NCBI GenBank assembly: GCA_001002325.1
Contig: LCNZ01000006.1
Span: forward strand, 66,130-108,491
Length of the DNA stretch: 42,362 bases
DNA from: Candidatus Amesbacteria bacterium GW2011_GWB1_47_19
Lineage (GTDB): Bacteria > Patescibacteriota > Microgenomatia > CAZETR01 > Amesbacteraceae
Direction of reading: 5' to 3'
Program-made: the position numbers and the translations under genes
Notes under the pieces: generated by a model
What the model was told of the DNA's origin: nothing
Database searches by the model: none
Seen by the model: the letters and a program-made list of their open reading frames with translations, nothing else
Shown: piece after piece, positions 2,412 through 41,047 of the stretch
Position numbering within the stretch: position 1 is the first letter of the stretch
Layout of the letters: every line of letters starts with the position of its first letter

Positions 2412-2421
2412 GTTGCCCTCA

Positions 2422-7542: not shown

Positions 7543-8616
7543 TTACTGGGAAGCCAGGCTTGCAACTTCGGTAGCAGAAAGCGCACGTTGATAAATCACA
7601 ACCTCATCAATTTTTCCGTTCCAAACACTGTAATTATTGGGGTTAGCCCCTACCAATACATTGTAGTTACTTTGCGTAATATTTCCTGTTTTGTTCATGC
7701 TCCCAACCTGCACGCCGTTTTGATAAATCCGCATTTTTGAGCCATCATAAACCGCTGCTATATGCACCCACTGGTTAGTAGGTAAATTCGGGCTGGCACC
7801 CAAAGTAGAGGTACTACTGCCGGTTTTTAAACGAAATCTTAGTCTTGAGCCACTTAAACTAATCATCCAGTAGTGTTGGCTGGTTGAATTTCCTGATGCC
7901 TTTGAAATAATCCTGTCATCGTCGATATACCCGTATGAGTATACCCAAGTAGAAATCGTCAGCTTGTTACCGACAACATCCACATCACCCAAGTTTACAT
8001 TGTCATTGATAGCATCATATGAAAGTGCATTACCACTTTTACCGGTCGTCCAAGTTGCACCGCTAATAGTGCCGTTGTGCGTACCCACACGGTCATCGGT
8101 TACAGAACCGCTTCCTTCTTCAAAACTGTATGCTGCCACAGCTCCCAATAATTCAGTCGCTGAAATTACTTTGGTTTCGGTGTCTATGGCGCCGCTGCCG
8201 TCAGTAACTGTTAAGGTAACTGTAAAGTCGTTTGTGCTAGTAAATACATGACTTGTTGTTACACCTGAACCTGTAGTTGTATCTCCAAAATCCCAAGCAT
8301 AATCCGCCAATACTCCTTCTATATCGCTTGAAGCCGAAGCATCAAAGTTAACAGTCAAAGGAATTTGCCCTGAGGCAGGAGACGCTGTAAAACTTGCGGC
8401 AGGCAGATCATTGACTGGATTTACGGTTATACTCACAGTTGCTGTATTGCTGTCTAATTGACCATCGTTGGCTTTGTAGGTAAAACTATCTGAACCGTTA
8501 AAGTTGGCGTTGGGAGTGTAGGTGGCGTTAGCTCCAGCGATATTTACCGAGCCATTTGCGGGTTGCGCAACTACCGAATAAGTTACCGGTTCTCCTTCCT
8601 GGTCCGTGGCAGTCAA
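7543..8616 (-). CDS. C-terminal portion of the giant surface protein, read in a different frame: cadherin-like tandem repeat, PKD domain, LamG-like domain
   Basis: The 357-aa ORF contains a PKD-like stretch (FTASPASGQIPLTVNFDASASSDIEG, YAWDFGD, TVTLTVTD). It also has a LamG/Laminin_G_3-like stretch (LRFRLKTGSSTS, WVHIAAVYDGSKMRIYQNG, IDEVVIYQRAL). This frame is open upstream to about 8757 and overlaps the 8613..13271 ORF. Confidence 0.8.
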   Translation of the reverse strand: MTATDQEGEPVTYSVVAQPANGSVNIAGANATYTPNANFNGSDSFTYKANDGQLDSNTATVSITVNPVNDLPAASFTASPASGQIPLTVNFDASASSDIEGVLADYAWDFGDTTTGSGVTTSHVFTSTNDFTVTLTVTDGSGAIDTETKVISATELLGAVAAYSFEEGSGSVTDDRVGTHNGTISGATWTTGKSGNALSYDAINDNVNLGDVDVVGNKLTISTWVYSYGYIDDDRIISKASGNSTSQHYWMISLSGSRLRFRLKTGSSTSTLGASPNLPTNQWVHIAAVYDGSKMRIYQNGVQVGSMNKTGNITQSNYNVLVGANPNNYSVWNGKIDEVVIYQRALSATEVASLASQ

Positions 8617-8740
8617 AATAATCTGAACTGCCGTATCTTCATCAGTCGTTTTTTGTTGATTCTGGGCAACCGGCGCGTCATTGACTGAGTTGACGGTGAT
8701 ATCAACTGTTGCTGTGTTGCTGTCAAGCGTGCCATCGTTG
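8552..8740. repeat. 189-bp near-identical intragenic repeat, copy A (partner 9571..9759)
   Basis: Constant offset of 1019 nt and a single mismatch (8641 a versus 9660 g). Identity stops abruptly at 8740/9759. Confidence 0.9.
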
Positions 8741-11700: not shown

Positions 11701-13271
11701 CCCTGAAATCCGAGATTATGACTTGGCGTAGGTACCGTACCTATTAGCACTGTGTTCCAGGAAGCGCCCTGATCGCTAGATTCAAGCCAGTATATATTAT
11801 CAGGAGAGCTATTAACCTCCTGGCCAAATAAATCAATATTGCCGTCACTATCAACATCAAAACTCGCAAACACATGTATACTGTTGGGAAACGCACTCGA
11901 TTGAGTCCATGATCCGGTCATGTCTCCACCGGGATTTCGGTACCAGTTCGGCCCGGAAACAATGTCTTTAGGTCCATCATTATTAACGTCGGCAAAAGCC
12001 AAGCCAAAAGTCTGGACATGGTTAGCAGATACTTGCTTGTAAATCCAGCTATTCAAAGGAAGAGTAAACTGGCCCTGATTAATATAAACCTTGGTGGGCG
12101 GATGACCTATCCAGTCGGCACCAAAGATGTCGGTTTTACCATCGTTATTCAGGTCCCCGAAACGGGCATTGTGGGCTGCTACGGTGTCGAGCTGTTGTTT
12201 ATCGAAGGTGGGAGTGGTTTCACCATTATTAAAGTAAATACTTAAATCCTGCAATTCTAGCCCCATCAGAATATCGGGTTTGCCGTCGTTATTAAAGTCT
12301 GCCACTTCCGGATGGTGTGCTCCCATGGCATTGTCAATGACCCTTTTGGTCCAAGTGGGTAAAGTAGGATCAGTAGGTTGCTCATACCAGGCAAATGTGT
12401 CCGCGGTATGCGCATCCATCGTCATCAGGTCCAAACGGCCGTCAGCATTTAAGTCGCCCAACAATACTTCATCTCCGTTTGTGTTGTTCACTCCGTATTT
12501 GGTCCAAGTACCGTTCATCGGGTCTCCCGGATTTTTAAGCCAGCCGTTGGTTACGGCAATATCTTTAAGCCCATCCCTGTCAATATCGCCAACATAAATC
12601 CCACGGTTAGGTGTCGCAATGGAGGTGATATCTCGTTCATTCCACGAGATTGGTGTATTTTGAATCCAGAGGTGAGTCCGGACATTAACACCTGCACTGT
12701 CACCGCTGGTCACTATATCGAGCTTGCCGTCGTTATTAAAGTCGCCCGTTTCAATGTCATGAATCCAGGTGCTGTGAGTTCCGATGATATGATACGTCCA
12801 ATTGTCAGTTATTTTAGGATCAGCTGTCTTTCCTGCCGGTGGATTTACAACTGGGTTTTCAAACCATAAAAGATTGTCGATGCCTCCTCCGTCTCCGGTC
12901 ACCAAGTCGAAGTCTGTGTCGCCATCCACATCAACGGCCTGCATATCAGTGGAAAATTCTTCATGTACTGTTGCAGCACTGATGATATGCATTGCATAGT
13001 TTTCGCCGGACTCGTACCAAACGAGTGCACGACCCGGAAGATTACCACCTAAAATACCATCGTCGTCGCCATCAAGATCAATATCGGCTACAGCCTTATT
13101 ATCTCCTGATCCGTCACTATCTATTGTGGTGGTCTGGAACGGGATAGGGTCGGCTGCATATACATGTGTAGCGAGTAAATTAAGGGGTAAGTAAGTCAAA
13201 CTAAGAAGTGAAAAGATCGCAAGGAATGAAAAAAACCGATATTTTAGACCTATTGAAATTTGAAAGTTCAT
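8613..13271 (-). CDS. giant secreted surface protein, N-terminal about 1500 aa: signal peptide, FG-GAP/VCBS beta-propeller repeats, PT-rich linker, LamG-like domain, cadherin-like tandem (about 95 aa) repeats, PKD domain
   Basis: There are about 12 FG-GAP-type units (GDFNNDGKLDIVT, GDIDRDGLKDIAV, ADFNNDGKPDILMG, ADMDGDGDIDIILG and others). A PTPIPSVTPSPT linker follows, then a LamG stretch (LRFRLKTNGTTS, WVHIAAVYDGVTMKLYQDG). After that come repeats of the form DEDTxxxIxLxxTDxDGDxLTYSIVSQPxNG and a PKD unit (YAWDFGD). The last about 45 codons are out-of-frame translation of repeat copy A. Confidence 0.85.
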   Translation of the reverse strand: MNFQISIGLKYRFFSFLAIFSLLSLTYLPLNLLATHVYAADPIPFQTTTIDSDGSGDNKAVADIDLDGDDDGILGGNLPGRALVWYESGENYAMHIISAATVHEEFSTDMQAVDVDGDTDFDLVTGDGGGIDNLLWFENPVVNPPAGKTADPKITDNWTYHIIGTHSTWIHDIETGDFNNDGKLDIVTSGDSAGVNVRTHLWIQNTPISWNERDITSIATPNRGIYVGDIDRDGLKDIAVTNGWLKNPGDPMNGTWTKYGVNNTNGDEVLLGDLNADGRLDLMTMDAHTADTFAWYEQPTDPTLPTWTKRVIDNAMGAHHPEVADFNNDGKPDILMGLELQDLSIYFNNGETTPTFDKQQLDTVAAHNARFGDLNNDGKTDIFGADWIGHPPTKVYINQGQFTLPLNSWIYKQVSANHVQTFGLAFADVNNDGPKDIVSGPNWYRNPGGDMTGSWTQSSAFPNSIHVFASFDVDSDGNIDLFGQEVNSSPDNIYWLESSDQGASWNTVLIGTVPTPSHNLGFQGYRVAQVEAGGLPELGLSSGNGIYYFKVPANPDGGNWPRTQVNSRPSDEGMGIGDIDGDGDLDIAAGTPSLEVDWYRNPGDGSANWTNFQIGNMTGDIFPDRFAILDVNEDGRLDIVGTEENGEVNGAETYWWQQPADPTTLNWTRLTIVSQATTNSMGTADMDGDGDIDIILGEHKGTLKMAVWENIAGGSFIEHVVDSGKESHLGSQPYDLDNDGDLDIVSIAYDAPENIHLWKNGSIGSPQPTPIPSVTPSPTVSPEPSPTVEPSVTPIPTLTPTPSPTPSTPPAFGVYNLDEGSGTTATDSSGSGNNGVVNGAVWVTGKVGSGLSFDGVNDNVNLGSLNVTGSKLTIATWVNTDTLGFETDPRVVSKANGSGEQDHYWMLGTIYPSNQLRFRLKTNGTTSTLIANNGGVPLDQWVHIAAVYDGVTMKLYQDGAEVGSTNKTGTVSNSTNDVLIGANPNNYSVFDGVVDEVHLFEEALTQNQIQSLMTGTLNQPPMADNGTATTDEDTPVDITLVATDADDNPLTYSIVSQPSNGAVTHIGNISTYTPNENFNGYDSFTFKANDGIADSNVATISITVTPVSDTPVAQNASYSVDEDNNLAVTLGASDVDGDTLTYSIVTSTLNGQVNLTGNSVDYIPGDNYFGRNDGTLDSNTATVDITVNSVNDAPVAQNQQKTTDEDTAVQIILTATDQEGEPVTYSVVAQPANGTANLSGDTVTYSPNANFNDADSFTFKANDALSDSNVATVTITVSSINDLPVAAFAANPTSGGVPMTVSFDASASSDIDGTVASYAWDFGDTTASTGSLVNHEYTAEGVYTTELTVTDNEGGQDTETVEITVFPPNKPPVASDQSVTTAEDADINIALTGTDSDGQILTYSIVSQPMNGSLVLAANIASYTPNANYNGGDTFTFKANDGMDDSNVAMVSITVTSVNDAPVAKTAVYDVNEDNDLSITLESSDVDGDTLTYILVSQPDDGTLDQNGSQSTMARLTATQQQLISPSTQSMTRRLPRINKKRLMKIRQFRLF
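9571..9759. repeat. 189-bp near-identical intragenic repeat, copy B
   Basis: See copy A. Here the junction is in frame, but it yields an atypical shortened repeat unit (YIPGDNYFGRNDGTLDSN). Confidence 0.9.
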
Positions 13272-13736: not shown

Positions 13737-16700
13737 TTACTTTGCGGTAACCGTTACTGAACTTGTTGAATTATTTGATGCAGCGTCATATGCTTTGGCG
13801 ACAATTGTATAAACAATACCCACTTTAGATGGGACTTTCCAATTACATGAATAAGGGCTGTCTGTATCTGAACAAACAAGCGTATTATTAACTAGAAAAT
13901 CTACTTTTGTTACTCCCTTATTATCAGATGCAGTCGCAGTAATTTTAATTGTTGCATTCTTTTTAACGGTACTTGCATTTGCAGGATATGTGATTTGTAC
14001 ATTCGGTGCTTGAATATCAGGTACCGGAGTAGGTGAAGGAGAAGGGCTAGGTGACAGTGTTGGTGACGGGGACGGACTTGGTGACGAACTGGGTGTGGGT
14101 GATGGCGATGGTGTAGGTGATGGTGTTGAATGTGATACCTGAACATTTACCAAACCAGATTCTCCAACATTTCCTACCTCATCGTATGACTTCACTAGTA
14201 GTGTATGCGGGCCCTCACTTAATGTAGTTGTATCCCAATTAAATGAGAATGGATCAGAGGTGTTAATTTCTTGTAAAGATCCATCCACATATAAATCCGT
14301 ACTGACAACACCAAAGTTATCCCTGGCATCTGTCTTAATTTCTACCAATCCCAATACCTGTTGACCTTCTGTTGGTGAAATTATTGATACAGTCGGGCTT
14401 ACATCGTCCAGTACAGCAATTCCCGGCCCGACAGGTAACTCAAATGAGTAGCTTAAGGTATTATCGGAATTATCTTTAGCTGTAATATTTATAGTAATTT
14501 TATTGATTGAATCGACAGGAGTGACATTTGTAGAATAAACCCCATTTGCTTCATTAACTGTTAAGGGTTTGAAACTTGATCCGTCTTTTGAATAACTTAC
14601 CTGCACTGTTGACAAGTCTCCTCCGGCCGGATCCAGTTCAAATTCAACTTTATTAATTACAGTCGGATCATACTGTTCCGACCTTTGACCATCAGAGAAA
14701 ATATATAATCTTTTAAATGCCGGAGGGTTGGCATCGGTTTTTGAGGTATCAAAGCTAGCGTTAACTTTTGCCAGCATATCCAAGCCTTTATTTTTATAAG
14801 GCATTTCTAGCTCAAATCTGTAATTTCCGGGGGTCGCAGTAATTGGTGGCCACAAACCTGTCCCTCCCGGAAATTTAGGAAAATTACCGCTATAAAACAC
14901 ATTATCGTCTTTGTATATAGTAAAGGGGATACTAACGTATGGCTTTAGTGAAAAATCCTGCCTGGTAAATCCTGGAATGTCACCACTTATAACATTGTTA
15001 CCTTGATAATAATACGAATTTAAATGAATCCAATAATTTGTATTTTTAAATCTTCCAAACCAGACAGTTGGACCTATACCAGCATAAATTTTCCTTTCGC
15101 TGAGTGCTGGGAGTAGATTGTTATTAAGATAAGTCCATCGCTGTGGATTATCATCAATACTAAATAGAGGTGTCATCTCAGTATTCATTAACAACCCACC
15201 ATCATTTGGGTTAACAAGCCTTCCGAAAAACGTTCCGGCAGATTTTGGTACTATTGAATACATGATTTGGGTAAGGGGTAATACCGGTTTGGGTAAGCTA
15301 CTACTGTAATAAACATGGTACCCAACTCTATTGCTACCGGTCCAAACAAGTGGGTAGATCTCTCCTACCTGCTGATCTAAATCCCATTGAACATCCATCT
15401 TGTAAAAATCAGATGAATTGTTAGTAAAATTAAGATTTCCCGAAAGTCCGGTAAATTTATAATAGTAATTATATAAATTAACTTCCGGCTGTTTAGATTG
15501 ATGAAAACGTTCATATGTGTAACTATCTGAAATGTTGCTAAAATACTGTGTTGCCATTATGTCGGGATTACCACCGAAGGTATTTAATCCGAAGGTAAAC
15601 GCCTGAGGGTTTGGAGCATAAGTCAAAATTTGATCTCTACCTACTATATAACCTGTGGATCCTGATGGGTCTGTGGGTATAGTCTTGACGAAATTAACTG
15701 CTTCACTTCTATTTACATTGACAATTGTTTCTCCACTATCCACCGAAGTGCCCTCCTTCATTACTACCGCATCCGCAAAGTTATTATTTGAGTCGTGGGC
15801 AAATTCATAACGGACATAAACATCATAGGTTCCCGGGTCATTGACATAAAACACCCTTTCAGCAGTTTTAGTGAAATCATAATAAACTTTTCCGGCTCTA
15901 TTATGTATTACTACAGGCCATGCTACCGTAAGCCCTGGCGATATATTATCTTGAATTTTTATAAGATAAAATTTGGTAAATTTAGTAGTCAAAGAAATAT
16001 TATTTGCCGCGTTACTAAAAGTAAGAGTACCTGTATAAATGTTATTACTCACGCTGGTGTTATCTACAATAAACCTGGTATCAATACTGCCGGTTTCATT
16101 TGCTGGTACAGTAACCGAAACCGGAGATTCATAAGTTATTCCTGTTGGGTAGGATGATGATGTTAAAGTCAGTGTTTGCTCAACATCCGTTCTTAAATTG
16201 GTTAATGTGATTGTTTTAGTGTCCGACGTCCAGTTAGCCAATGCAGGACTATCCACACCATAATCCAGAGATCCGCTAGGATTTGTAGCTATTGTGGGTG
16301 ACACTCTAAGAAACACGGGTATATTTCCTTTTACCGCCCCATTCTCTGATAAATTAATGCGGACAAAATAATTTCCTGCTCGGGCTATATCATTATCTAC
16401 GGTAATTACGGCATCAAAAACATCAGTCTGCCCACCGCTGACATCTAACGTAGTTTTAGATGCGGTTACACCTACTCCCGGAATTCCCAAGTTTAGATCA
16501 ACAGTTAAATCGGTAACTAACTCATCTGTTGATGAAACAGAAAAGCTCAGTGTGTGTTCACTTAGTTTTTGAGTTGGATCGGAACTTAGTGTCCAGGTAC
16601 TTGGTGCTGCTAATATTTTACTGCTGAAAGGAATTGCCGCCTTGACATCGACTTCCCCTGCACCGCGGTCGTTATAGGTCATACCAATATCCCTTGTGGT

Positions 16701-18338
16701 ACTTTTAAGTGTTTGCTTTATCTGTTCGGGCGTATAGTCAGGGTAAGCTTGCTTGAGAAGTGCTGCCACACCTGCGATATGAGGAGTAGCCATAGATGTA
16801 CCCGAAATCCTGACGTGTTGATCATCAAAACAGGTTGGTGCCGTACCAAAAGATGTTCCCCACCTGGCTGCACAGATTAGTACTCCGGGTGCTGCTATAT
16901 CAGGTTTTTGAATATCAACTTCGTTCCAGACAAGTGGACCACGTGAGCTAAATGAAGCGATCGGGTTAGTACAGTACGAGTTACTACCAATTTGTGAACC
17001 CTTACAAGATGCGGCTACGGTAATAGCAGTTCTAGCAGCTCCCGGTGAGCCTATTGTTGAAGCTCCGGGACCTGAGTTACCGGCAGCTATGGCATGGACA
17101 ACACCCATGGCTGTTGAATTATCTACAGCCAAACTAATTACATCATCAGGATTTCCGCTTCCACCAAGGCTCATGTTGGCTACATCCACATGATCACTGG
17201 AGTCACCATCGCCATTTGGGTCTGTGGCAAAATTAATTCCGGCTATAACCTGAGACCAAGATCCTGATCCCCCTGCACTAAGAACTTTAACTGCCAAAAT
17301 ACGGGCATCGGGAGCTACTCCATTAAGGAGGCCCTTTCCAGCTACGGTTGCCGCCACATGTGTTCCATGACCATGGTCATCCATTGGGTTGTTATCATTA
17401 TTTACGAAATCATAACCACCAATTATTTTACAATCCTGTCCCAAACAACCACCCAAATCCAGATGGGTATAGTCGACCCCCGTGTCTATGATTGCCACAT
17501 CTATACCAAATCCTGTAAGTGCTTGATTTTGAGAATCCTGCAAATTCCACACTTCTTTTGCGCGAATTTGGTCAAGAGATGTGTCAAGTGTTATTTTTAC
17601 TTCTCTATCTAATTCAACTTTCTTTACGTCCGCGTCAGCTGATAATGCCACTAATGTATCTTTATCTATATCGGCTGCAATTCCGTTGATAATTTTTAGA
17701 TCACTTTTGAATTTACTTTGAGATGTAAATTTGGAGATAACATCCTTTTTCTTGTCATCAAATTTAGAAATTTTGTCTTTTATCTGCTCTGGTTTTTGTT
17801 TAGATTCATAAAATTTATTAAAGGGTAAGTTAAATTGGATAATTACCGGGGCGGTATTGTCTGTCTCTAATTTTTTCTCTATATCGGTATCGATCTTATG
17901 AATCTTTTTACCAGAAAGGTCAAATGTTTCAGTTTTTTGATATATTTGGAAACCATCAACTCCTTTTACATAATTAACAGTATCCTTACTTCCTTGAATT
18001 AGGCTTAATGATGTAGTTTTATCAGTTTCAAAGGTAAGATATTGCCCATCTCCGACAACAAGATTCTGTTTAATTGCTTCGCCTGTTGATTCACCAAACG
18101 AATTAACTCCAATCGCATACTGATTACTTGAAATAACTTGATAACCCAAAGCGTTTAGTGTTGATTGAGAAAACGTTTGCTCAGGTGTATTAACACTAAG
18201 AACCTTGTCCCTGGAAAACGAAGGTTGTGGTAATAAGTAAAAAAGGATACCAACAACGATTATTATTAAGGAAATTCTAACTTTTTTGTGAAAGTATATT
18301 CGTCTGACGAATTTTTGGATCAAAAAAACGTTATTCAT
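13737..18338 (-). CDS. giant secreted subtilisin-like (S8) serine protease with C-terminal Ig-like domains
   Basis: The catalytic triad contexts are AIIDTGVDYTHLDL (Asp), HGHGTHVAATVAG (His) and SGTSMATPHIAGVAALL (Ser). There is an N-terminal anchor, a PS-rich linker (STPSPTPSPSPTPSSSPSPSPSP) and two C-terminal Ig-like modules. I place the start at ATG 18338 (MNNVFLIQKF) because TTGACA at 18382..18377 lies inside the longer track ORF (start 18389). Confidence 0.85.
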   Translation of the reverse strand: MNNVFLIQKFVRRIYFHKKVRISLIIIVVGILFYLLPQPSFSRDKVLSVNTPEQTFSQSTLNALGYQVISSNQYAIGVNSFGESTGEAIKQNLVVGDGQYLTFETDKTTSLSLIQGSKDTVNYVKGVDGFQIYQKTETFDLSGKKIHKIDTDIEKKLETDNTAPVIIQFNLPFNKFYESKQKPEQIKDKISKFDDKKKDVISKFTSQSKFKSDLKIINGIAADIDKDTLVALSADADVKKVELDREVKITLDTSLDQIRAKEVWNLQDSQNQALTGFGIDVAIIDTGVDYTHLDLGGCLGQDCKIIGGYDFVNNDNNPMDDHGHGTHVAATVAGKGLLNGVAPDARILAVKVLSAGGSGSWSQVIAGINFATDPNGDGDSSDHVDVANMSLGGSGNPDDVISLAVDNSTAMGVVHAIAAGNSGPGASTIGSPGAARTAITVAASCKGSQIGSNSYCTNPIASFSSRGPLVWNEVDIQKPDIAAPGVLICAARWGTSFGTAPTCFDDQHVRISGTSMATPHIAGVAALLKQAYPDYTPEQIKQTLKSTTRDIGMTYNDRGAGEVDVKAAIPFSSKILAAPSTWTLSSDPTQKLSEHTLSFSVSSTDELVTDLTVDLNLGIPGVGVTASKTTLDVSGGQTDVFDAVITVDNDIARAGNYFVRINLSENGAVKGNIPVFLRVSPTIATNPSGSLDYGVDSPALANWTSDTKTITLTNLRTDVEQTLTLTSSSYPTGITYESPVSVTVPANETGSIDTRFIVDNTSVSNNIYTGTLTFSNAANNISLTTKFTKFYLIKIQDNISPGLTVAWPVVIHNRAGKVYYDFTKTAERVFYVNDPGTYDVYVRYEFAHDSNNNFADAVVMKEGTSVDSGETIVNVNRSEAVNFVKTIPTDPSGSTGYIVGRDQILTYAPNPQAFTFGLNTFGGNPDIMATQYFSNISDSYTYERFHQSKQPEVNLYNYYYKFTGLSGNLNFTNNSSDFYKMDVQWDLDQQVGEIYPLVWTGSNRVGYHVYYSSSLPKPVLPLTQIMYSIVPKSAGTFFGRLVNPNDGGLLMNTEMTPLFSIDDNPQRWTYLNNNLLPALSERKIYAGIGPTVWFGRFKNTNYWIHLNSYYYQGNNVISGDIPGFTRQDFSLKPYVSIPFTIYKDDNVFYSGNFPKFPGGTGLWPPITATPGNYRFELEMPYKNKGLDMLAKVNASFDTSKTDANPPAFKRLYIFSDGQRSEQYDPTVINKVEFELDPAGGDLSTVQVSYSKDGSSFKPLTVNEANGVYSTNVTPVDSINKITINITAKDNSDNTLSYSFELPVGPGIAVLDDVSPTVSIISPTEGQQVLGLVEIKTDARDNFGVVSTDLYVDGSLQEINTSDPFSFNWDTTTLSEGPHTLLVKSYDEVGNVGESGLVNVQVSHSTPSPTPSPSPTPSSSPSPSPSPTLSPSPSPSPTPVPDIQAPNVQITYPANASTVKKNATIKITATASDNKGVTKVDFLVNNTLVCSDTDSPYSCNWKVPSKVGIVYTIVAKAYDAASNNSTSSVTVTAK

Positions 18339-18473
18339 ATGGGTTATATAACATAAATAATCTATATGTGTTTCACTGTCAAGCATCAATTTGAAAATCC
18401 AACTATAATCATCTGATAAATAAAAGCTATAAGTGGGGTGAAAACATTATTTTAAGTAGGTAATTGGGGGTAA

Positions 18474-18553: not shown

Positions 18554-19969
18554 TTATTTTATAGATCTGATTTGATTAAGAATTAACTTAGACAATTCAT
18601 ATGATTTCCCAGCTCCGGAAACAATTACTATGTCTCCATTTTTACATTCTGAGGCAATATTTTTTGCGACTTCCCGGAATTCCGGAATGTATTTAGCTTT
18701 CTTGCCGATTTTTTTAACTAAATCTTCCGGTTTAACCTTACCTGGATCTTTTTCTCTACCAGCATAGGGTTTGGTTACGATAACTCTATAGGCCGGTTTT
18801 AATGCCGAGGCAAAGCCATTTATAAATATTTCTAAACGGGAAAACTGGTGCGGCTCAAATACCACCCAAATATTTCGCTTGGGAAATGCCTGTTTAGCTG
18901 CTTGCATGGTCGCTCCGACCGCAGTTGGGTGAACAGCGTAATCGTCAAAAACCTTTATCCCTTTCTCTTCGCCGGTTAAACTGAATCGTCGTTCTACTCC
19001 CGAAAATCTTTTGAAGGTCTCTCTGACACCGTCGGCTTTAATTCCTAGTTCTGCAGCACCAGCCCAAATTCCCATGGCGTTGGCGATATTATGTCTGCCG
19101 GGTATTTTCAAAACAAATTCTTCATCTGATCTCCCCCCTTTAACTCTGAACCGGCTATAGGTAGGGGCTAGCTTTATGATCTCACCCCGATATTCATCGG
19201 CAAAGGGAAATTTAAACTTACGTTTAAGGAAATACCCGATAACCTTAATTTTGTTATTAGCCAACCAGTCTGACATCTCACCTAGAAGCTCTTGGATTCC
19301 TAGACTTTGCTCGTTTACTATCAATATTTTTGGTCCGGTTAGTTTCCGGATAAGTTTATTAAATGAGCCGCGGAAATCTTCAAAATTCTTATAAAACTCG
19401 GGGTGATCCATCTCGATATTATTAATAATCAAAATCGAAGGTGAATAATTTAAAAAATTATAATTAAATTCATCCGCTTCGCAGACAAAATAACGTGATT
19501 TACCGATCCGTATTGTCTTCTTCCATTCGGGGACAATGGCTCCCACTTCCACAATTGGGTCCACACCCCCCGCTTCGAGGACTAAACCGGTTAGAGCGGT
19601 CGTGGTTGATTTTCCATGGGTTCCGGCAATGGCGATTACATACTTGTCTTTTTGCAGGTATCGGCCCATTAATTCTTGCCACGTCATTAAAATACCGCGT
19701 TTCCTGGCCTCAACCACTTCCGGGTTCTCATTACTTACATCGAAAATGGCCGGAGAAACCGCCAAGATATCCACGCCTTCCAGATGGGTTTTGTCATGTC
19801 CGAAGATGGGTTTGATTTTCTCATTAATTAAAAAATCAGTATAGTAAGTATGGGGAGACAAATCACACCCTGTCACTTTATAGCCTTCATGTTGAGCTAA
19901 AATTGCCACTCCTGCCAGCGCGCTGCCTCCTATCCCCATAAAATGGATGTGTTTTTTCTTTTGAGCCAC
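18554..19969 (-). CDS. murC: UDP-N-acetylmuramate--L-alanine ligase (MurC-type Mur ligase)
   Basis: 471 aa with a GTG start. The N-terminal HFMGIGGSALAGVAILAQHEGYKVTGCD is typical of MurC/Mpl, and the P-loop is AGTHGKSTTTAL. Mpl cannot be excluded by eye. Confidence 0.8.
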   Translation of the reverse strand: MAQKKKHIHFMGIGGSALAGVAILAQHEGYKVTGCDLSPHTYYTDFLINEKIKPIFGHDKTHLEGVDILAVSPAIFDVSNENPEVVEARKRGILMTWQELMGRYLQKDKYVIAIAGTHGKSTTTALTGLVLEAGGVDPIVEVGAIVPEWKKTIRIGKSRYFVCEADEFNYNFLNYSPSILIINNIEMDHPEFYKNFEDFRGSFNKLIRKLTGPKILIVNEQSLGIQELLGEMSDWLANNKIKVIGYFLKRKFKFPFADEYRGEIIKLAPTYSRFRVKGGRSDEEFVLKIPGRHNIANAMGIWAGAAELGIKADGVRETFKRFSGVERRFSLTGEEKGIKVFDDYAVHPTAVGATMQAAKQAFPKRNIWVVFEPHQFSRLEIFINGFASALKPAYRVIVTKPYAGREKDPGKVKPEDLVKKIGKKAKYIPEFREVAKNIASECKNGDIVIVSGAGKSYELSKLILNQIRSIK

Positions 19970-19971
19970 GA

Positions 19972-20610
19972 TTACCTTACTTTAGTCAGTGATAATAATA
20001 CACCATTTCTGGTTTTGAAAAGGTTTTCCGCATTCTCCAGCAAAAATATATCGCCGCATTTAATTTCATGGGTTTTGGAAAAACCCCAAAAGTTATTTAG
20101 ATCGGAGTTTAGCAAAAACATCCACAGAGTATGAATATTGCCTCCGTGAGTCACAACCAGGGCTTTTCCCTGTTTGTCTACTTCTATAATTTCCCTCAAC
20201 GCGTTTAAAGTTCTCTCTTGCAGCTGTTCCAGCGTTTCCCCGTCGGGAGGGGAAGTGGTTTTTGGATACTTTCCCCGCAAAGCAAACTCCTCTTTCCAGG
20301 TCCTTTTTATCTCCCCGGCTGTATAGCCGGTCCATTGGCCATGATTAACTTCACTTAGTTCATTGATTATTTCCAGAGGGCATCGACAGGCATCCTGGAT
20401 AATTCTCGCAGTCTCTATTGCTCTGGCATACGGGCTGGAATGAATTCTCACGATACCGGTCTTTGCAAATACTTCAGCTAGTTTATGAGCCTCGACCTCT
20501 CCGTTTCTGTTAAGTGAAGTTTCACTGCCCGAGTATCTCTTTTCTTCGCTGTCTTTGGTGGAGCCATGTCTGACCAGGAATAATGATAGTCTGTGATCAA
20601 ATCTTCCCAT
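19972..20610 (-). CDS. histidine phosphatase superfamily protein (phosphoglycerate-mutase-like)
   Basis: It has the LVRHGST (RHG) motif and a downstream VVTHGGNI His motif. It overlaps the upstream gene by 14 nt and ends 2 nt before the murC start. Confidence 0.8.
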   Translation of the reverse strand: MGRFDHRLSLFLVRHGSTKDSEEKRYSGSETSLNRNGEVEAHKLAEVFAKTGIVRIHSSPYARAIETARIIQDACRCPLEIINELSEVNHGQWTGYTAGEIKRTWKEEFALRGKYPKTTSPPDGETLEQLQERTLNALREIIEVDKQGKALVVTHGGNIHTLWMFLLNSDLNNFWGFSKTHEIKCGDIFLLENAENLFKTRNGVLLSLTKVR

Positions 20611-21358
20611 AAGCCATCAAGGCGGCAATAATTCTTGAAAATCCTATTCCGAAGCTGGTCTGGAAGACAAAGCTGTTCTTGTCATCACACCGCTTGACTT
20701 CGAAAGCTCTGGAAAACTTTTGCCCCAAAAAGTGGGTTGAAGCGATTTGATTTTTCGATCCGTCAGGCATTGGCAGATCAAACCCGTATGTAATTTCCGC
20801 TCCCGGACATCGGTCATCATCGGCACGTTTGACAAAATCGGCTTGCAGGTTAAATTTTTCCAGGAGTTTATTAATAATTCTCCTGTCTCTTTCTGTCTGA
20901 TCCAGACATTCTTTTTCAGACCGGAACGCGGTGTGGGCTTCGATCCACAAAAATTCTTTTTCTCTTAATAACGGGGAAATTTTCTTGTGTTCGGCCCGAA
21001 AAACGGTTCGTTGCTGGTAATATTTGAAGGGCAGGCTCAGGCCGTCCGCCAGCCAATTTTTAAAAGCCAGGCAGAAGATTGTTTCTGAAGAAATAGCCAG
21101 AGCCAATCTTTCTTTAAGTCTTTTTCCTCTTCCGGTTTCAGTAACCCAGTAAACAGCCGGCCTGAACCCCCGAATATGACTTACTTCTATACTGATTACC
21201 CCTTCCGGTATCAGGGTGGGAAACAGCACCGGTTGGTATCCGTCTTCCTCCAGCAACTCCGCGGCGATTTTTTCCACCCTTTTATAGACTTTAATAAATT
21301 CCGGTCGTCTGATAAAAAATCCCTCGATAGGATAACGGCTGTCGATTAAACCGTCCAT
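20597..21358 (-). CDS. class II aminoacyl-tRNA-synthetase catalytic-core paralog (archaeal/eukaryal-type ProRS-like) lacking an anticodon-binding domain
   Basis: The 253 aa track ProRS core landmarks closely, compared with ProRS sequence quoted from memory. These are LFPTLIPE, GFRPAVYWVT, LALAISSETIF (versus LALRPTSETI), VFRAE (motif 2), REKEFLWIEAHTAF, STHFLGQKFSRAFE and QTSFGIGFSRIIAALMAYG (motif 3). The ORF stops right after motif 3. Confidence 0.7.
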   Translation of the reverse strand: MDGLIDSRYPIEGFFIRRPEFIKVYKRVEKIAAELLEEDGYQPVLFPTLIPEGVISIEVSHIRGFRPAVYWVTETGRGKRLKERLALAISSETIFCLAFKNWLADGLSLPFKYYQQRTVFRAEHKKISPLLREKEFLWIEAHTAFRSEKECLDQTERDRRIINKLLEKFNLQADFVKRADDDRCPGAEITYGFDLPMPDGSKNQIASTHFLGQKFSRAFEVKRCDDKNSFVFQTSFGIGFSRIIAALMAYGKI

Positions 21359-22059
21359 AATTTTTTTGCCATCAGCTTCAGAAAAATCGTTAATTCGAAA
21401 ACCGGCAGATAAAGAATGGTTATTACTCCGATGAATCCGTCTTTATAACCTTTGCCTTTCACCAATCTGTATTTTACATCGTTTAGGCTTTTCAACAGCG
21501 GGCTGAGATCGACTTTGGTTCTTGTTTTTGCCAGGATGTCGGTTGCTCGCCAGTATTTTTTCCCCCATTCTCCAATGTCCCGGTGAGAGTAATGTTTCAG
21601 CGGTATTTCCAGCCTGCCAACTTCCTCGCTTTGGGGATGGAAGTTGACCTGGTCCCTTTTCATCAGCCGCAGTTGATAATCCGGATACCAGTTGCCATGT
21701 TTTAGTATTTTTCCCAAAACAATATTCTCTCTGGGGATAGCATAATAATTTCTCATGTTTTGTTTTACTGTCCTTTCTATCTCGTTCAAACTGCTTTTTG
21801 TCAGGCATTCATCGGCATCCAGAAATAGAATCCACTTTTTTGTCGCCTGGCCAGCCCCGAACATTCTTTGGTCAGTTAAATTGTCAAATTTTCTGTGTAC
21901 CAGTTTCTCCCGGGTCCGGCTGATCAGCCTGTCGATTCTGTCAGAACTGAAATCATCCACGATGATTGCCTCACCTAACTGAGCCACAGAGTCTAAACAT
22001 CTTTTCAAGCTTTCCGTTTCATCCTTGGCCAGGATAATGCAGGAAATATGATCTTTCAT
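21346..22059 (-). CDS. family 2 glycosyltransferase (WaaE/KdtX-like)
   Basis: It has ISCIILAKDE, FLDADE (DXD) and GNWYPDYQLRLMKRD motifs. ATG 22059 forms an ATGA overlap with the radical SAM stop. The track's alternative start is 22071. Confidence 0.8.
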   Translation of the reverse strand: MKDHISCIILAKDETESLKRCLDSVAQLGEAIIVDDFSSDRIDRLISRTREKLVHRKFDNLTDQRMFGAGQATKKWILFLDADECLTKSSLNEIERTVKQNMRNYYAIPRENIVLGKILKHGNWYPDYQLRLMKRDQVNFHPQSEEVGRLEIPLKHYSHRDIGEWGKKYWRATDILAKTRTKVDLSPLLKSLNDVKYRLVKGKGYKDGFIGVITILYLPVFELTIFLKLMAKKLWTV

Positions 22060-23180
22060 AAGAATTTCCAATGCGGGTCGGAGCAGGTTTGTTCACTAGT
22101 TTCTCCGGCCATATACTTTAATAATTCCTCGTTCATATGATCATGCCGGCAATAAGGGCATGCCACAGCGTTGATATTATTAACCGCTTCTGCCCTCTTT
22201 CCCCCCGTCAACACTTCTTTGAATGAAGAGCCGTTTAGATTTCCAAATGAATATTTCCCGTTGCCTGTTAAATAGAGGGCCACGCAGGGAAAAACATCAC
22301 CGCCAGCTGTTACCAGTCCGATTAGACTGTCGTAAACCACCGGGCAGCGATGATAATCTCTCACCTGCCAGGCAGTTTCATACCTCTCCCTTAAAAATGT
22401 TTTGTAATTGACTGCAATCCCTTTTTCTCTGGCCGTCTCCTCGATTTCTTCCGTCCAATTAATGAAAGTTCCCTGGGTGGTTGCTGTCTGGAAGTTGTCG
22501 GTTTGGACTAACGGGCGAAACATTACATAATCGACTCCCAAATTATGAGCCACTCCGATAAAATTTCTCAGATAGGTAAGCTGGTCATATCCGTCCTGGA
22601 CTATCATGCTTATTCCTAAAGTCGGGGCGCCATCAATCCTTTGGTCGGCGATTTTTTCAATGTTTCGGCACGCCCTGTCATAAGTCCCCGCCGGTGAAAA
22701 GTTTAATCTCCGATAACTTGTCTCGTCGGCGGCATTCAGGGAGAAGCGAATCCAGCGGCATTTTTGGTAAGCCTCTTCCAGCCTGGTATTCATGGCCACA
22801 CCGTTGGTGAGTATTCCGGTTTCGATCCCGCCGGCATTTAATTGTATAATAGCTTCAGGTAAATAAGGATGACAGCTAGGCTCGCCTCCTCCGGAGAACA
22901 CCACCGAGCGGGTCTTCTGTTCTGTCACCAACTCCTGCACCAGGTCGGAAAAAACCTGGACTGGCAAATCTCCGTTTAACCTTAGATTCCTATAAGCACA
23001 GAATCTACAGGAAAGATTACACCTGTCGGTTGGTTGAATTTCTAATGAAACTGGGAAATTTGAACTAACCTCATTTCTCTCCCACGATCTCTCAACCCTC
23101 TCCAGGTGTTTGAATATACGATTGCGATGACTGGTACGATGTGCAAAATCGTTCACTTTTTTCTCCGTCTCTATAGCCAT
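22056..23180 (-). CDS. radical SAM enzyme with a C-terminal Cys-rich (SPASM/twitch-like) extension
   Basis: It has CNLSCRFCAY (CX3CX2C), a GGGEP motif and C-terminal cysteines (CPVVYDS, GGDVFPC, CPYCRHDH). GGAGG lies 9 nt upstream of the ATG. Confidence 0.85.
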   Translation of the reverse strand: MAIETEKKVNDFAHRTSHRNRIFKHLERVERSWERNEVSSNFPVSLEIQPTDRCNLSCRFCAYRNLRLNGDLPVQVFSDLVQELVTEQKTRSVVFSGGGEPSCHPYLPEAIIQLNAGGIETGILTNGVAMNTRLEEAYQKCRWIRFSLNAADETSYRRLNFSPAGTYDRACRNIEKIADQRIDGAPTLGISMIVQDGYDQLTYLRNFIGVAHNLGVDYVMFRPLVQTDNFQTATTQGTFINWTEEIEETAREKGIAVNYKTFLRERYETAWQVRDYHRCPVVYDSLIGLVTAGGDVFPCVALYLTGNGKYSFGNLNGSSFKEVLTGGKRAEAVNNINAVACPYCRHDHMNEELLKYMAGETSEQTCSDPHWKFL

Positions 23181-23428: not shown

Positions 23429-23713
23429 TTAGAGAACTTCCCACACCAAGCCCAGGTCTACAGCAAAATATTCATGGATGAGCCTGTTTCTCATGTCTGC
23501 AATATCCTGCCAGGGAATATTTGGATAGTCTTGCTTGAATTTATCTTCTAAGTTGGCAACTGCTTCACCAATAACTTCCAGTTTTCTGATAATTGCGTCT
23601 TGTTTTTCTTCGTCGATCATAAACCGTTCCTTTTCTAGCCCTTTGGAGTACTTTTCGACAGACTCAATACTTTGGAGAATGTGAGTTATCAGTATTTTGG
23701 GATCTTTTTTCAC
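23429..23713 (-). CDS. HepT (DUF86) toxin of a HepT/MNT type II/VII toxin-antitoxin pair
   Basis: 94 aa with the RNRLIHEY (RX4HXY) motif. It overlaps the upstream MNT gene by 4 nt. Confidence 0.85.
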   Translation of the reverse strand: MKKDPKILITHILQSIESVEKYSKGLEKERFMIDEEKQDAIIRKLEVIGEAVANLEDKFKQDYPNIPWQDIADMRNRLIHEYFAVDLGLVWEVL

Positions 23714-23955
23714 AATATTTGAACTTGATCTTTTAAGATATAGTCTTTGAGAAGCGGGGAAATAGAATTGTATGTCAAAAGATCAACTTTTTTGACTAGT
23801 ACGTTGCCTAGCTCCCTTTGCAGTCTGACTAAGTCTAGCAAACTTCGTCCTTTGGGCAATTCCACTAGGATATCGATATCACTGTCTTCCCGGTTATCTC
23901 CTCTGACGTAAGAGCCAAAAATTGAAGACCGAATTACACCCGCGTGCTGCAGCAC
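23710..23955 (-). CDS. MNT-type nucleotidyltransferase antitoxin, apparently truncated at the 5' end
   Basis: It has the GSYVRGDNREDSDIDILV (GSX10DXD) motif. The frame stays open upstream of GTG 23955 as LVHPILDDIKQKVTP. That stretch has no start codon and runs into the duplicated gene fragment, with a stop at 24004..24006. Confidence 0.75.
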   Translation of the reverse strand: MLQHAGVIRSSIFGSYVRGDNREDSDIDILVELPKGRSLLDLVRLQRELGNVLVKKVDLLTYNSISPLLKDYILKDQVQIL

Positions 23956-40392: not shown

Positions 40393-40395
40393 GGT

Positions 40396-41013: not shown

Positions 41014-41021
41014 GGACAAAT

Positions 41022-41047
41022 AAAAAAACTCGCAAATGATTGCGAGC
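41022..41047 (-). terminator. intrinsic terminator hairpin immediately upstream of the histidine phosphatase-serS operon
   Basis: The minus-strand RNA is GCUCGCAA-UCAU-UUGCGAG followed by UUUUUUU. It ends 8 nt before ATG 41013. Confidence 0.7.

What the first reader, a model, noticed from the sequence alone, without database searches (positions are those of the whole stretch)
20597..21358. ProRS catalytic-core paralog that ends right after motif 3 and has an altered substrate-pocket signature
The 253-aa protein follows the archaeal/eukaryal-type ProRS core block by block and keeps class II motif 2 (VFRAE) and motif 3 (GIGFSRII). It terminates where the anticodon-binding domain should begin, and the next gene is a clearly different protein (RHG phosphatase). 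The conserved ProRS segment that I recall as LALRPTSET reads LALAISSET here. A change in amino-acid or acceptor specificity is therefore plausible. Stand-alone aaRS cores in other families (truncated SerRS-like amino acid:carrier-protein ligases, AsnA, HisZ, PoxA) act in tRNA-independent chemistry. A ProRS-derived example in a cell-wall-type operon would be new to me.
Basis: partly seen in the sequence, partly recalled or inferred. Interest (0 to 1): 0.65.

Follow-up and report, generated by a model that had tools for sequence, protein, structure and literature searches.

The report
Stand-alone ProRS core linked to murC
This gene encodes a shortened relative of the enzyme that loads proline onto tRNA; it has lost its tRNA-reading part, has a remodelled substrate pocket, and sits beside a cell-wall gene (murC) wherever enough flanking DNA could be read, so it probably attaches an amino acid to something other than tRNA.

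Summary
Window 20597-21358 (-) encodes a 253-aa protein that matches the archaeal/eukaryal-type ProRS catalytic domain from end to end and stops where the anticodon-binding domain should begin.

- **Not an artefact.** Eleven homologs in at least eight lineages (48-93% identity) are nearly all 249-267 aa. The next gene overlaps the stop codon.
- **Rare and distinct.** Only two 50%-identity clusters exist among 1.84 billion representatives. The family is monophyletic on a long stem.
- **Catalysis kept, pocket changed.** Adenylation residues are invariant. RPT becomes AIS, and two of nine proline-cavity residues shrink (Phe to Cys184; Ser/Thr to Gly239 plus an inserted residue).
- **Conserved module.** It is the best-conserved gene of a radical-SAM/SPASM, GT2, ProRS-like and His-phosphatase module. 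Gene order varies, yet a co-oriented murC adjoins every intact locus with readable flanks.
- **The murC is lineage-typical.** The window's copy is 62% identical to a dcw-cluster murC.
- **Nothing tRNA- or carrier-related is conserved.** No dedicated tRNA, carrier protein or precursor peptide recurs.

Best reading (inferred, not shown): a tRNA-independent amino-acid adenylating ligase acting on a nucleotide-sugar or muramyl-type intermediate. I found no description of it in the literature. It is a new variant of the known aaRS-core paralog theme.

The parts
20597..21358 (-). ProRS-like stand-alone class IIa catalytic core (253 aa), with no anticodon-binding domain and no C-terminal Zn domain
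   Evidence: The AF2 model has pLDDT 83.6. Foldseek TMq is 0.80-0.84 to ProRS catalytic domains 1nj8, 1nj2, 3ial and 1h4s.
21080..21106 (-). LALAISSET (residues 85-93): the family-invariant replacement of the ProRS 'RPTSE' loop (R88A, P89I, T90S; S91 and E92 kept)
   Evidence: In P. falciparum ProRS the equivalent Pro358, Thr359 and Glu361 contact halofuginone, which fills the proline and A76 pockets (PMC7312540; PMC9403976).
20990..21004 (-). Class II motif 2 core VFRAE (R121 and E123 invariant)
   Evidence: R121 maps to human R1152 and P. falciparum R390, which bind the ATP alpha/beta phosphates.
20807..20809 (-). Cys184 codon. It replaces a Phe that is 100% conserved in 74 canonical ProRS sequences (human Phe1216, a wall of the L-proline cavity).
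   Evidence: PMC9974123 lists the human L-proline cavity residues. The residue mapping is by motif register and is therefore inference.
20627..20650 (-). Class II motif 3 GIGFSRII (R242 invariant). Gly239 replaces the canonical Ser/Thr (human Thr1276), and Phe240 is an inserted residue.
19972..20610 (-). Histidine phosphatase (His_Phos_1, RHG motif). Its start overlaps the ProRS-like stop codon by 14 nt.
   Evidence: The closest PDB entries are PhoE, phosphoserine phosphatase PspA, CobC and glucosyl-3-phosphoglycerate phosphatase. The same overlap is seen in L001, L011, L012, L016 and L018.
21346..22071 (-). GT2 glycosyltransferase (241 aa) with a DxD motif and a hydrophobic C-terminal helix. 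It overlaps both neighbouring genes.
   Evidence: PF00535, 1.5e-14. PDB hits are weak: the N-terminal halves of GmaR and SunS.
22056..23180 (-). Radical SAM/SPASM enzyme (374 aa), with a CxxxCxxC motif and a conserved C-terminus ...DPHWKFL
   Evidence: only 17 homologs found. The best Foldseek match for the AF2 model is DesII, a nucleotide-sugar radical SAM enzyme (TMq 0.67), followed by SuiB and BlsE.
18554..19969 (-). MurC-type UDP-N-acetylmuramate:L-alanine ligase (471 aa), starting 2 nt after the phosphatase gene ends
   Evidence: TIGR01082 scores 346.7 bits against a cutoff of 335.1. PDB 9ir5 MurC, 3.7e-76. It is 62% identical to a murC lying inside a canonical dcw cluster (L017).

Best explanation
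The gene encodes a catalytically competent, stand-alone class IIa synthetase core that descends from an archaeal/eukaryal-type ProRS. It has lost the anticodon-binding domain. In all members except P0006 it has also lost the C-terminal zinc domain, whose terminal carboxylate helps position ATP in canonical ProRS.

The proposed mechanism has two steps:
1. It binds ATP and an amino acid and forms an aminoacyl-adenylate. The substrate is probably a proline-like or bulkier imino/amino acid, because the cavity is enlarged by Phe to Cys184, Ser/Thr to Gly239 and Thr to Ser90.
2. It passes the aminoacyl group to an acceptor that is not tRNA. The segment next to the A76 (acceptor) pocket is rewritten from RP to AI.

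The acceptor is most likely a nucleotide-sugar or muramyl-type intermediate that is made or used by the neighbouring enzymes. These are a DesII-like radical SAM/SPASM enzyme, a GT2 glycosyltransferase, a translationally coupled histidine phosphatase, and MurC, which itself ligates an amino acid to UDP-MurNAc.

What is shown: the homology, the truncation, the conservation pattern, and the gene linkage. What is inferred: the adenylation activity, the non-tRNA acceptor, and the link to cell-wall precursor chemistry.
For: 1. Catalytic machinery is kept. The following residues are invariant or nearly so in the family and match canonical ProRS: P47 (motif 1), F65, E92, R121, E123, R132, E135, F136, W138, E140, H142, Q204, H209 and R242. 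The fold is confirmed.
2. tRNA-reading parts are absent in every member. Ten of the 11 homologs are 215-267 aa. The exception, P0006, keeps only a ProRS-C_1-like tail (30.3 bits) and has no HGTP_anticodon domain. No tRNA gene lies in the window or within any module; the only one found in 10 related loci is a tRNA-Tyr about 800 nt upstream of murC in L007.
3. There are family-invariant switches at positions that are near-invariant in ProRS: R88A, P89I, T90S, S105D, A151C, F184C and Gly239. These map to the proline cavity and the A76-side contacts.
4. The clade is separate: a score gap of 410 to 254 bits, and 40/40 NJ bootstraps with a long stem.
5. The module is conserved with shuffled gene order in at least eight lineages, and ProRS-like is its most conserved gene (48-58% identity in the most distant lineages, against 29-49% for its partners). 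The start and stop codons of ProRS-like and HisPhos overlap in six lineages. MurC and ProRS-like overlap in L015.
6. The partners share a nucleotide-sugar or small-molecule theme. The radical SAM model is nearest DesII, MurC is a nucleotide-sugar:amino-acid ligase, and the phosphatase is nearest small-molecule phosphatases.
7. All five proteins retain their catalytic motifs (read directly from the sequences).
Against: - No activity, substrate or product has been measured, so the amino acid and the acceptor are guesses.
- Seven of nine proline-cavity residues are unchanged, so plain proline or alanine activation is not excluded.
- Deleting the zinc domain abolishes aminoacylation in mammalian ProRS (PMC7960942), so a core lacking it may be a weak adenylating enzyme unless something compensates.
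- The murC next to the module looks like the lineage's ordinary housekeeping murC. The window's copy is 62% identical to a dcw-cluster murC, and the module-adjacent MurCs are polyphyletic. The linkage could therefore reflect regulation or an insertion preference and not shared chemistry.
- The radical SAM model has only moderate confidence (pLDDT 71.7), and SuiB, a peptide maturase, is its second-best match.
Confidence: 0.5

Rival explanations
1. A minimalist tRNA-dependent synthetase. The core still charges the acceptor end of a tRNA (tRNAPro or another) without reading the anticodon, and the aminoacyl-tRNA feeds cell-wall or other non-ribosomal chemistry, in the way Fem/MurM-type systems use aa-tRNA.
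For: Class II cores carry the acceptor-end chemistry. F65 and the motif-2 loop arginines are retained. Links between the cell wall and aa-tRNA are established for Fem/MurM enzymes (general knowledge; PMC8040666 appeared).
Against: No Fem/MurM/MprF-like aa-tRNA transferase occurs in any module. No dedicated tRNA lies in the window or inside a module in 10 related loci. ProRS depends strongly on anticodon recognition (established knowledge), and that domain is missing in every member. The RP residues beside the A76 pocket are replaced.
Confidence: 0.15
2. Part of a small secondary-metabolite cluster, for example an aminoacyl or peptidyl nucleoside/sugar product. In this reading ProRS-like is a tRNA-independent ligase, and the adjacent murC is either an extra ligase or a self-resistance copy of the target, not a partner in normal wall synthesis.
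For: The distribution is rare and patchy across phyla (CPR, a low-GC lineage, Actinobacteria), with transposases nearby and decayed copies present. The L001 and L012 lineages add a ThyA-like gene, and L001 also has PP-binding and AMP-binding genes. A Thermoleophilia locus pairs the radical SAM homolog with two Mur ligases, an MFS transporter, a HAD hydrolase and a B12-radical SAM enzyme. The radical SAM enzyme resembles DesII and BlsE, which act in sugar and nucleoside antibiotic pathways.
Against: No exporter or regulator is conserved within the module. The extra genes are lineage-specific. The Amesbacteria murC is 62% identical to a housekeeping dcw-cluster murC, and nothing shows that the genome has a second copy.
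Confidence: 0.15
3. An AsnA-like or adenylate-only enzyme. It uses the aminoacyl-adenylate to make an amide with ammonia or a small amine, or it simply supplies an activated or modified amino acid that MurC then installs at stem-peptide position 1.
For: AsnA is a precedent for a class II core that transfers to ammonia (PMC9437257). There is tight coupling to MurC and to a phosphatase resembling phosphoserine phosphatases. A second HisPhos gene sits next to SerRS in the same window, which hints at phosphatases supplying amino acids.
Against: MurC needs a free amino acid with a free amine and does not use adenylates (established mechanism). This reading assigns no role to the radical SAM enzyme or to GT2.
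Confidence: 0.1
4. A non-catalytic regulatory or scaffold subunit, in the manner of HisZ, that binds an amino acid or nucleotide and modulates MurC or the phosphatase.
For: HisZ is a precedent for a class IIa core turned regulator (PMC9437257). The gene is translationally coupled to its partner genes.
Against: The motif-2 and motif-3 arginines and all adenylate-binding residues are invariant across lineages that are 48-93% identical. A purely regulatory protein would not be expected to keep all of them.
Confidence: 0.08
5. An assembly or sequencing artefact, or a decaying pseudogene of proS.
For: Decayed copies do exist in two actinobacterial contigs (L008, L010).
Against: The same ~250-aa length appears in independent assemblies from many samples (P0001 on 32 contigs, P0009 on 208). 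The downstream gene overlaps the stop codon. No anticodon-domain sequence follows. There are 54 invariant columns, including the catalytic residues.
Confidence: 0.01

Closest known systems
Canonical archaeal/eukaryal-type prolyl-tRNA synthetase (TIGR00408; structures 1nj1, 1nj8, 1h4q, 4hvc)
   Same: Same catalytic-domain fold (TMq 0.80-0.84) at 26-38% identity. Class II motifs 1-3 are present, and most ATP- and proline-contact residues are kept.
   Different: There is no anticodon-binding domain and no Zn domain or C-terminal Tyr. RPTSE becomes AISSE, Phe becomes Cys184, and Ser/Thr becomes Gly239 with an inserted residue. The score is 193 bits against the 437-bit cutoff. The family forms a separate clade and has its own gene neighbourhood.
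Amino acid:carrier-protein ligases (SerRS-derived truncated class II cores; Mocibob et al. 2010, cited in PMC9437257)
   Same: They are stand-alone class II catalytic cores that lost the tRNA-binding domain and acylate a non-tRNA acceptor. This is the closest functional precedent.
   Different: They derive from methanogen-type SerRS, not from ProRS. They sit next to carrier-protein genes, whereas a PP-binding gene occurs here only in the L001 lineage and outside the conserved module. Their dependence on an active-site zinc was not assessed here.
PoxA/GenX (LysRS core that beta-lysylates EF-P) and AsnA (AspRS core, asparagine synthetase)
   Same: They are truncated class II cores that keep adenylation chemistry and transfer to a protein amine or to ammonia (PMC9437257).
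   Different: They belong to class IIb lineages and have different partners. No EF-P or amide-synthesis context is present here.
MshC (CysRS-like Cys:GlcN-Ins ligase of mycothiol synthesis)
   Same: It is an aaRS-derived ligase that puts an amino acid on a sugar acceptor, in a pathway that also uses a glycosyltransferase and a phosphatase. That is the same logic as the module proposed here. This is my own knowledge plus PMC9437257.
   Different: It has a class I fold and is unrelated in sequence. There is no Mur ligase or radical SAM partner.
ProRSx (Streptomyces ProRS duplicate paired with tRNAProA)
   Same: It is the only ProRS paralog listed in the 2022 review of aaRS duplications.
   Different: ProRSx is a full-length bacterial-type enzyme that still charges a dedicated tRNA. 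The family here is archaeal-type, truncated, and has no dedicated tRNA.

Membership tests
Canonical ProRS (NCBIfam TIGR00408 proS_fam_I equivalog) | Whole-protein score at or above the curated cutoff (437 bits) | tested here: not met
   193.2 bits, covering model positions 21-266 of 475 only.
Canonical ProRS | HGTP_anticodon (anticodon-binding) domain following motif 3 | tested here: not met
   No Pfam hit in the window protein, P0005, P0006 or P0009. The canonical neighbour P0012 has it at 1.5e-20.
Canonical ProRS | C-terminal ProRS-C_1 zinc domain ending in a conserved Tyr whose carboxylate reaches the ATP site | tested here: not met
   Absent from the window protein. Only P0006 keeps a sub-threshold ProRS-C_1 tail (30.3 against 31.5 bits), and that tail ends in Val, not Tyr. 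The role of the domain is described in PMC7960942.
Canonical ProRS | Conserved RPTSE loop and a complete proline cavity (human E1123, F1167, W1169, E1171, H1173, F1216, H1242, T1276, R1278) | tested here: not met
   The loop reads AISSE. Seven of the nine cavity positions are kept, while F1216 becomes C184 and T1276 becomes G239. The mapping is by motif register.
Class II aaRS catalytic core superfamily (Pfam PF00587 tRNA-synt_2b) | Score above the gathering threshold, with motifs 1, 2 and 3 and their invariant Pro, Arg and Arg | tested here: met
   78.7 bits against 29.3. P47, R121 and R242 are invariant. The fold is confirmed.
aa:CP ligases (SerRS-like) | Descent from atypical (methanogen-type) SerRS | tested here: not met
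   The SerRS models hit only residues 9-76 at 38.5 bits, against 193 bits for ProRS.
aa:CP ligases (SerRS-like) | A conserved adjacent carrier-protein (PP-binding) gene | tested here: not met
   None in the window or in 7 of the 8 lineages. The PP-binding gene in L001 and L003 lies outside the module and is absent from L002.
tRNA-independent aaRS-like ligase (functional class) | Amino-acid-dependent adenylate formation and transfer to a non-tRNA acceptor | not testable with these tools
   This needs ATP-PPi exchange and acceptor assays. Only the retention of catalytic residues and the loss of tRNA-binding domains are shown.
MurC (TIGR01082), for the neighbouring gene 18554-19969 | Score above the equivalog cutoff, three Mur ligase domains, and orthology to dcw-cluster murC | tested here: met
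   346.7 against 335.1 bits. Three Pfam domains. It is 62% identical to the murC inside the mraZ...ftsW cluster of L017.

The most novel reading that the evidence does not exclude
The ProRS-derived core directly aminoacylates a peptidoglycan precursor or a related nucleotide-sugar, for example UDP-MurNAc(-L-Ala) or a derivative tailored by the radical SAM and GT2 enzymes. This would be a previously unknown tRNA-independent, aaRS-based branch of cell-wall precursor synthesis, carried on a module that moves between phyla and repeatedly ends up beside the host's murC.
Probability: 0.2. Interest if true: 0.85.

Novelty: new variant of a known kind. Interest (0 to 1): 0.62.

Why it matters
Stand-alone synthetase cores that have left translation (AsnA, HisZ, PoxA, aa:CP ligases, MshC) are textbook cases of enzyme recruitment. 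No ProRS-derived example is listed in the 2022 review of aaRS paralogs, and my text searches found none.

This family comes with a compact, conserved set of partners: a radical SAM/SPASM enzyme, a GT2, a histidine phosphatase and murC. The whole hypothesis can therefore be tested with five recombinant proteins.

If the product is a modified muramyl or nucleotide-sugar compound, it would add a new reaction type to cell-wall precursor chemistry. It would also say something about envelope biology in CPR bacteria, which are uncultivated and poorly understood.

The enlarged proline pocket (Phe to Cys, Thr to Gly) is a natural experiment in re-engineering ProRS specificity.

Tried and rejected
- **Frameshift or hidden anticodon domain.** Rejected: the downstream gene overlaps the stop codon, and the ~250-aa length is conserved.
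- **Dedicated tRNA (as for ProRSx).** None in the window or inside any module. The only tRNA found in 10 related loci is a tRNA-Tyr about 800 nt upstream of murC in L007.
- **Riboswitch, T-box or other Rfam element** in the window, L001, L005 or L007. None found apart from the two tRNA hits at the edge of L007.
- **RiPP reading (radical SAM/SPASM plus a SunS-like GT).** I looked for a conserved small precursor ORF in the intergenic gaps of the window and L001 and found none that is conserved. The radical SAM model is closest to DesII, not to a peptide maturase. I kept this only as a minor possibility.
- **Anti-phage defence system.** No PADLOC system matched; there were only weak viperin-like radical SAM hits.
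- **Plasmid, phage or virus carriage.** tblastn against the plasmid and phage collections returned only ordinary proS at about 33% identity. No relatives were found in viral contigs.
- **Cassette-specific Mur ligase paralog.** Rejected: the module-adjacent MurCs are polyphyletic and resemble lineage-typical murC.
- **Wider sampling.** The GTDB species representatives gave only 2 loci, and the JGI metagenome scan gave only 3, all Amesbacteria.
- **Organism identity of the low-GC lineage (L001, L012, L016).** This could not be established because the cluster members carry no organism names.
- **Operon signals.** The promoter and terminator scan showed nothing above the shuffled background.
- **A first phylogeny script** timed out. 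I re-ran it with a faster distance calculation.
Full report
**1. Checking the observation.**

The ORF at 20597-21358 on the minus strand is real. It is 253 aa long and starts with ATG. Its homology to ProRS rests on three results:
- Pfam assigns it to the class II core family tRNA-synt_2b (7.5e-22).
- NCBIfam's archaeal/eukaryal-type ProRS model TIGR00408 matches at 7.8e-57. The match covers only model positions 21-266 of 475 and scores 193 bits against a cutoff of 437. The bacterial-type model gives only 2.3e-08.
- The best solved structures are M. thermautotrophicus and M. jannaschii ProRS (3e-44), aligned over their catalytic domains only.

The protein ends 11 residues after the motif-3 arginine. 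Canonical enzymes have the conserved HGD linker into the anticodon-binding domain at exactly that point.

An AlphaFold2 model built from the family alignment is confident (pLDDT 83.6, pTM 0.80). It superposes on ProRS catalytic domains with TMq 0.80-0.84.

**2. The truncation is not an artefact.**

The next gene is a His_Phos_1 'RHG' phosphatase (5.4e-42), and it starts 14 nt before the ProRS-like stop codon. There is no room for a hidden anticodon-binding domain.

A search of 5.8 billion protein clusters found 11 homologs at 48-93% identity:
- Nine are 249-267 aa long, and P0011 is a 215-aa N-terminally truncated copy.
- The best hit is a hypothetical protein of Candidatus Amesbacteria, a CPR/Microgenomates lineage.
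- The only longer member, P0006 (388 aa), keeps a sub-threshold ProRS-C_1 zinc-domain tail and lacks the anticodon-binding domain. It looks like an evolutionary intermediate in which only the anticodon-binding domain was deleted.

**3. A small and distinct clade.**

A profile of the family was scored against 1.84 billion representative proteins. Only two family representatives appeared, at 459 and 410 bits. The next hits scored 254 bits or less and are mostly of normal ProRS length (about 470-490 aa). All 20 of them that I read carry RP(T/G)(S/E)E, with T-S-E in 18.

In a neighbour-joining analysis with 45 canonical sequences, the family was monophyletic in 40 of 40 bootstraps. Its stem length was 0.31, against a median internal branch of 0.046.

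The family is very rare:
- 2 loci among 185,579 GTDB species representatives: one Amesbacteria MAG and a decayed copy in a Pseudonocardiaceae MAG.
- 3 loci in the JGI metagenome scan.
- None in viral contigs, plasmids or phages.

**4. What changed and what did not.**

I compared the family with 74 full-length canonical ProRS sequences.

These positions are conserved in both groups: P47 (motif 1), F65, E92, R121 and E123 (motif 2), R132, E135, F136, W138, E140, H142, Q204, H209 and R242 (motif 3). They bind ATP and the adenylate. Their human and parasite equivalents are R1152/R390, R1163, F1167, W1169, E1171, H1173, H1242/H480 and R1278.

Family-invariant switches occur at positions that are otherwise near-invariant in ProRS:
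- R88A, P89I and T90S (RPT to AIS).
- S105D and A151C.
- F184C, where the Phe is 100% conserved in canonical enzymes.
- Gly239 in place of Ser/Thr, followed by an inserted residue.

PMC9974123 lists the human L-proline cavity as E1123, F1167, W1169, E1171, H1173, F1216, H1242, T1276 and R1278. By motif register, seven of these are kept. F1216 corresponds to Cys184 and T1276 to Gly239. Both changes, like Thr to Ser90, go to smaller residues, so the cavity is enlarged. This residue mapping is my inference.

PMC7312540 reports that halofuginone fills the proline and A76 pockets and contacts P. falciparum Pro358, Thr359 and Glu361. These are the P, T and E of the RPTSE loop. The P-to-I and T-to-S switches therefore fall on direct contacts, and R88A lies immediately beside them.

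In canonical enzymes the C-terminal Tyr carboxylate forms a charge network with R1163, R1278 and the ATP gamma-phosphate, and deleting the zinc domain abolishes activity (PMC7960942). This family works without that element, or else compensates for it.

**5. Genomic context.**

In the window the gene is the third of five co-oriented genes that overlap or abut one another:

| Gene | Coordinates (-) |
|---|---|
| Radical SAM/SPASM | 22056-23180 |
| GT2 | 21346-22071 |
| ProRS-like | 20597-21358 |
| His phosphatase | 19972-20610 |
| MurC | 18554-19969 |

The same genes recur wherever a family member has enough flanking DNA, but in different orders:
- **rSAM - GT2 - ProRSL - HisPhos - MurC:** the Amesbacteria lineages and L011, L018 and L021.
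- **MurC - ProRSL - HisPhos - rSAM - GT2:** a low-GC lineage (L001-3, L012, L016).
- **MurC - rSAM - GT2 - ProRSL with zinc tail:** L007, which has no phosphatase.
- **MurC overlapping ProRSL:** an actinobacterial contig (L015).

Two high-GC contigs (L008, L010) carry decayed ProRSL and rSAM remnants next to transposase or HTH genes.

ProRS-like is the most conserved member of the module. In the most distant lineages it is 48-58% identical to the window protein, against 29-49% for the partner proteins.

The radical SAM family is as rare as the ProRS-like family, with 17 homologs found.

**6. The murC partner.**

The Mur ligase passes the murC equivalog cutoff (346.7 against 335.1 bits) and matches MurC structures at 3.7e-76.

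It has thousands of close relatives. It is 62% identical to a murC located inside a canonical dcw cluster (mraZ, mraW, ftsL, a PBP, murE, murC, murB, murA, murF, mraY, murD, ftsW) on a 566-kb contig (L017).

The module-adjacent MurCs do not form a clade:
- The window's MurC is closer to that dcw-cluster murC than to the other module MurCs (34-50% in the other lineages).
- The low-GC lineage's MurCs are closer to Clostridium MurC (51-53%) than to the CPR ones (43-47%).

So the module has a rare, patchy distribution that implies horizontal spread, yet in each lineage it lies beside a lineage-typical murC. The genes are often translationally coupled. This argues for a functional tie to the MurC step or to its expression. 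It does not show whether that murC is the cell's only copy.

**7. Clues from the other partners.**
- **Radical SAM.** The model (pLDDT 71.7) is structurally closest to DesII, which acts on a TDP-sugar (TMq 0.67). SuiB, a peptide maturase, is next, followed by BlsE, which acts on a nucleoside-sugar acid.
- **Phosphatase.** It is nearest broad small-molecule phosphatases: PhoE, phosphoserine phosphatase PspA, CobC and glucosyl-3-phosphoglycerate phosphatase.
- **GT2.** It has a DxD motif and a hydrophobic C-terminal helix. Its only PDB matches are weak, to the GmaR and SunS N-terminal domains.
- **Negative results.** I found no conserved precursor peptide, no conserved carrier protein, no Rfam element other than tRNA, no tRNA within any module and no PADLOC defence system.

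**8. Interpretation.**

The best-supported reading is a tRNA-independent amino-acid adenylating ligase. The reasoning is:
- The chemistry-bearing residues are under strong constraint.
- The tRNA-reading domain is gone in every member.
- The residues lining the amino-acid cavity and the acceptor-side loop are rewritten in a family-invariant way.
- The gene travels with enzymes that handle nucleotide-sugars and small phosphorylated molecules, next to the enzyme that joins an amino acid to UDP-MurNAc.

A pathway with the same logic is mycothiol synthesis, which uses a glycosyltransferase, a phosphatase and the CysRS-like ligase MshC. This is an analogy only, drawn from my own knowledge and PMC9437257.

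The amino acid, the acceptor and the product are not established here. The rivals are listed with their weights in the Rival explanations section: tRNA-dependent charging, a secondary-metabolite cluster with murC as an extra ligase or a resistance copy, an AsnA-like amide synthetase or substrate supplier, and a HisZ-like regulator.

**9. Novelty.**

The 2022 review of aaRS duplications lists ProRSx as the only ProRS paralog. Full-text searches for ProRS-like proteins, paralogs or homologs, and for combinations of the module's components, returned nothing relevant.

Truncated aaRS cores recruited to non-translational chemistry are a known kind. A ProRS-derived one, in a murC-linked module with a radical SAM enzyme, a GT2 and a phosphatase, is a new variant.

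The find is interesting but not yet mechanistically resolved, hence an interest score of 0.62.

Noticed in passing
window 39067-41070 (-): A canonical SerRS (39067-40392) is immediately preceded by a second His_Phos_1 gene (40396-41070), which is 30% identical to the module's phosphatase. The same pair occurs in L005 and L006. So a histidine phosphatase sits next to a class II synthetase-type gene twice within 20 kb. This hints at phosphatases that supply amino acids (the module's phosphatase resembles the phosphoserine phosphatase PspA).
   Followed up: partly
window 23429-23955 (-): A small HepT-like (DUF86) gene and a nucleotidyltransferase (MntA-like) gene overlap just upstream of the module. 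They look like a toxin-antitoxin pair. They are present in the window and, in part, in L004, but absent from L005 and L006, where SecA directly precedes the module.
   Followed up: no
L004 8179-12802 vs window 18554-23180: This is a strain mosaic. In L004 the radical SAM protein is 100% identical and the GT2 98% identical to the window's. Its ProRS-like, phosphatase and MurC proteins are only 91-93% identical, which is the L005 type. This implies a recombination breakpoint inside the module, around the GT2/ProRS-like junction.
   Followed up: partly
window 8613-13271 and 13737-18389 (-): Two giant (~1550 aa) predicted surface proteins lie directly downstream of murC. One carries FG-GAP, cadherin-like, PKD and laminin-G domains (Pfam). 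The other has a subtilisin-like catalytic region by eye, was not scanned against any family library, and ends in Ser/Pro-rich repeats. Other Amesbacteria strains (L004-L006) have DUF2079 or other genes and PMT_2 here instead.
   Followed up: no
L001 2037-6277; L012 1455-2516: In the low-GC lineage a divergent thymidylate-synthase-like gene (Pfam 4.6e-17) sits just upstream of murC. In L001 and L003 there is also an unassigned 380-aa ORF, a PP-binding carrier protein and an AMP-binding adenylating enzyme. L002 replaces these with an IS110 transposase and phage terminase genes.
   Followed up: partly
L013 653-10137: A Thermoleophilia MAG has a homolog of the module's radical SAM enzyme (36% identity) next to a transposase. 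Nearby are two Mur-ligase genes, an MFS transporter, a HAD hydrolase and a B12-binding radical SAM enzyme. The contig ends before any ProRS-like gene could be seen.
   Followed up: no
window 22056-22076 (C-terminus of the radical SAM protein); L001, L007: The radical SAM/SPASM proteins of all lineages end in the same peptide, ...(D)PHWKFL, directly at the overlap with the GT2 start codon. The conserved C-terminal tail has no known function.
   Followed up: no
window 1788-3693 (-): An SRAP (SOS-response-associated peptidase) gene lies adjacent to a Y-family (ImpB/DinB-like) DNA polymerase gene. This is a typical DNA-damage tolerance pair and is unrelated to the finding.
   Followed up: no
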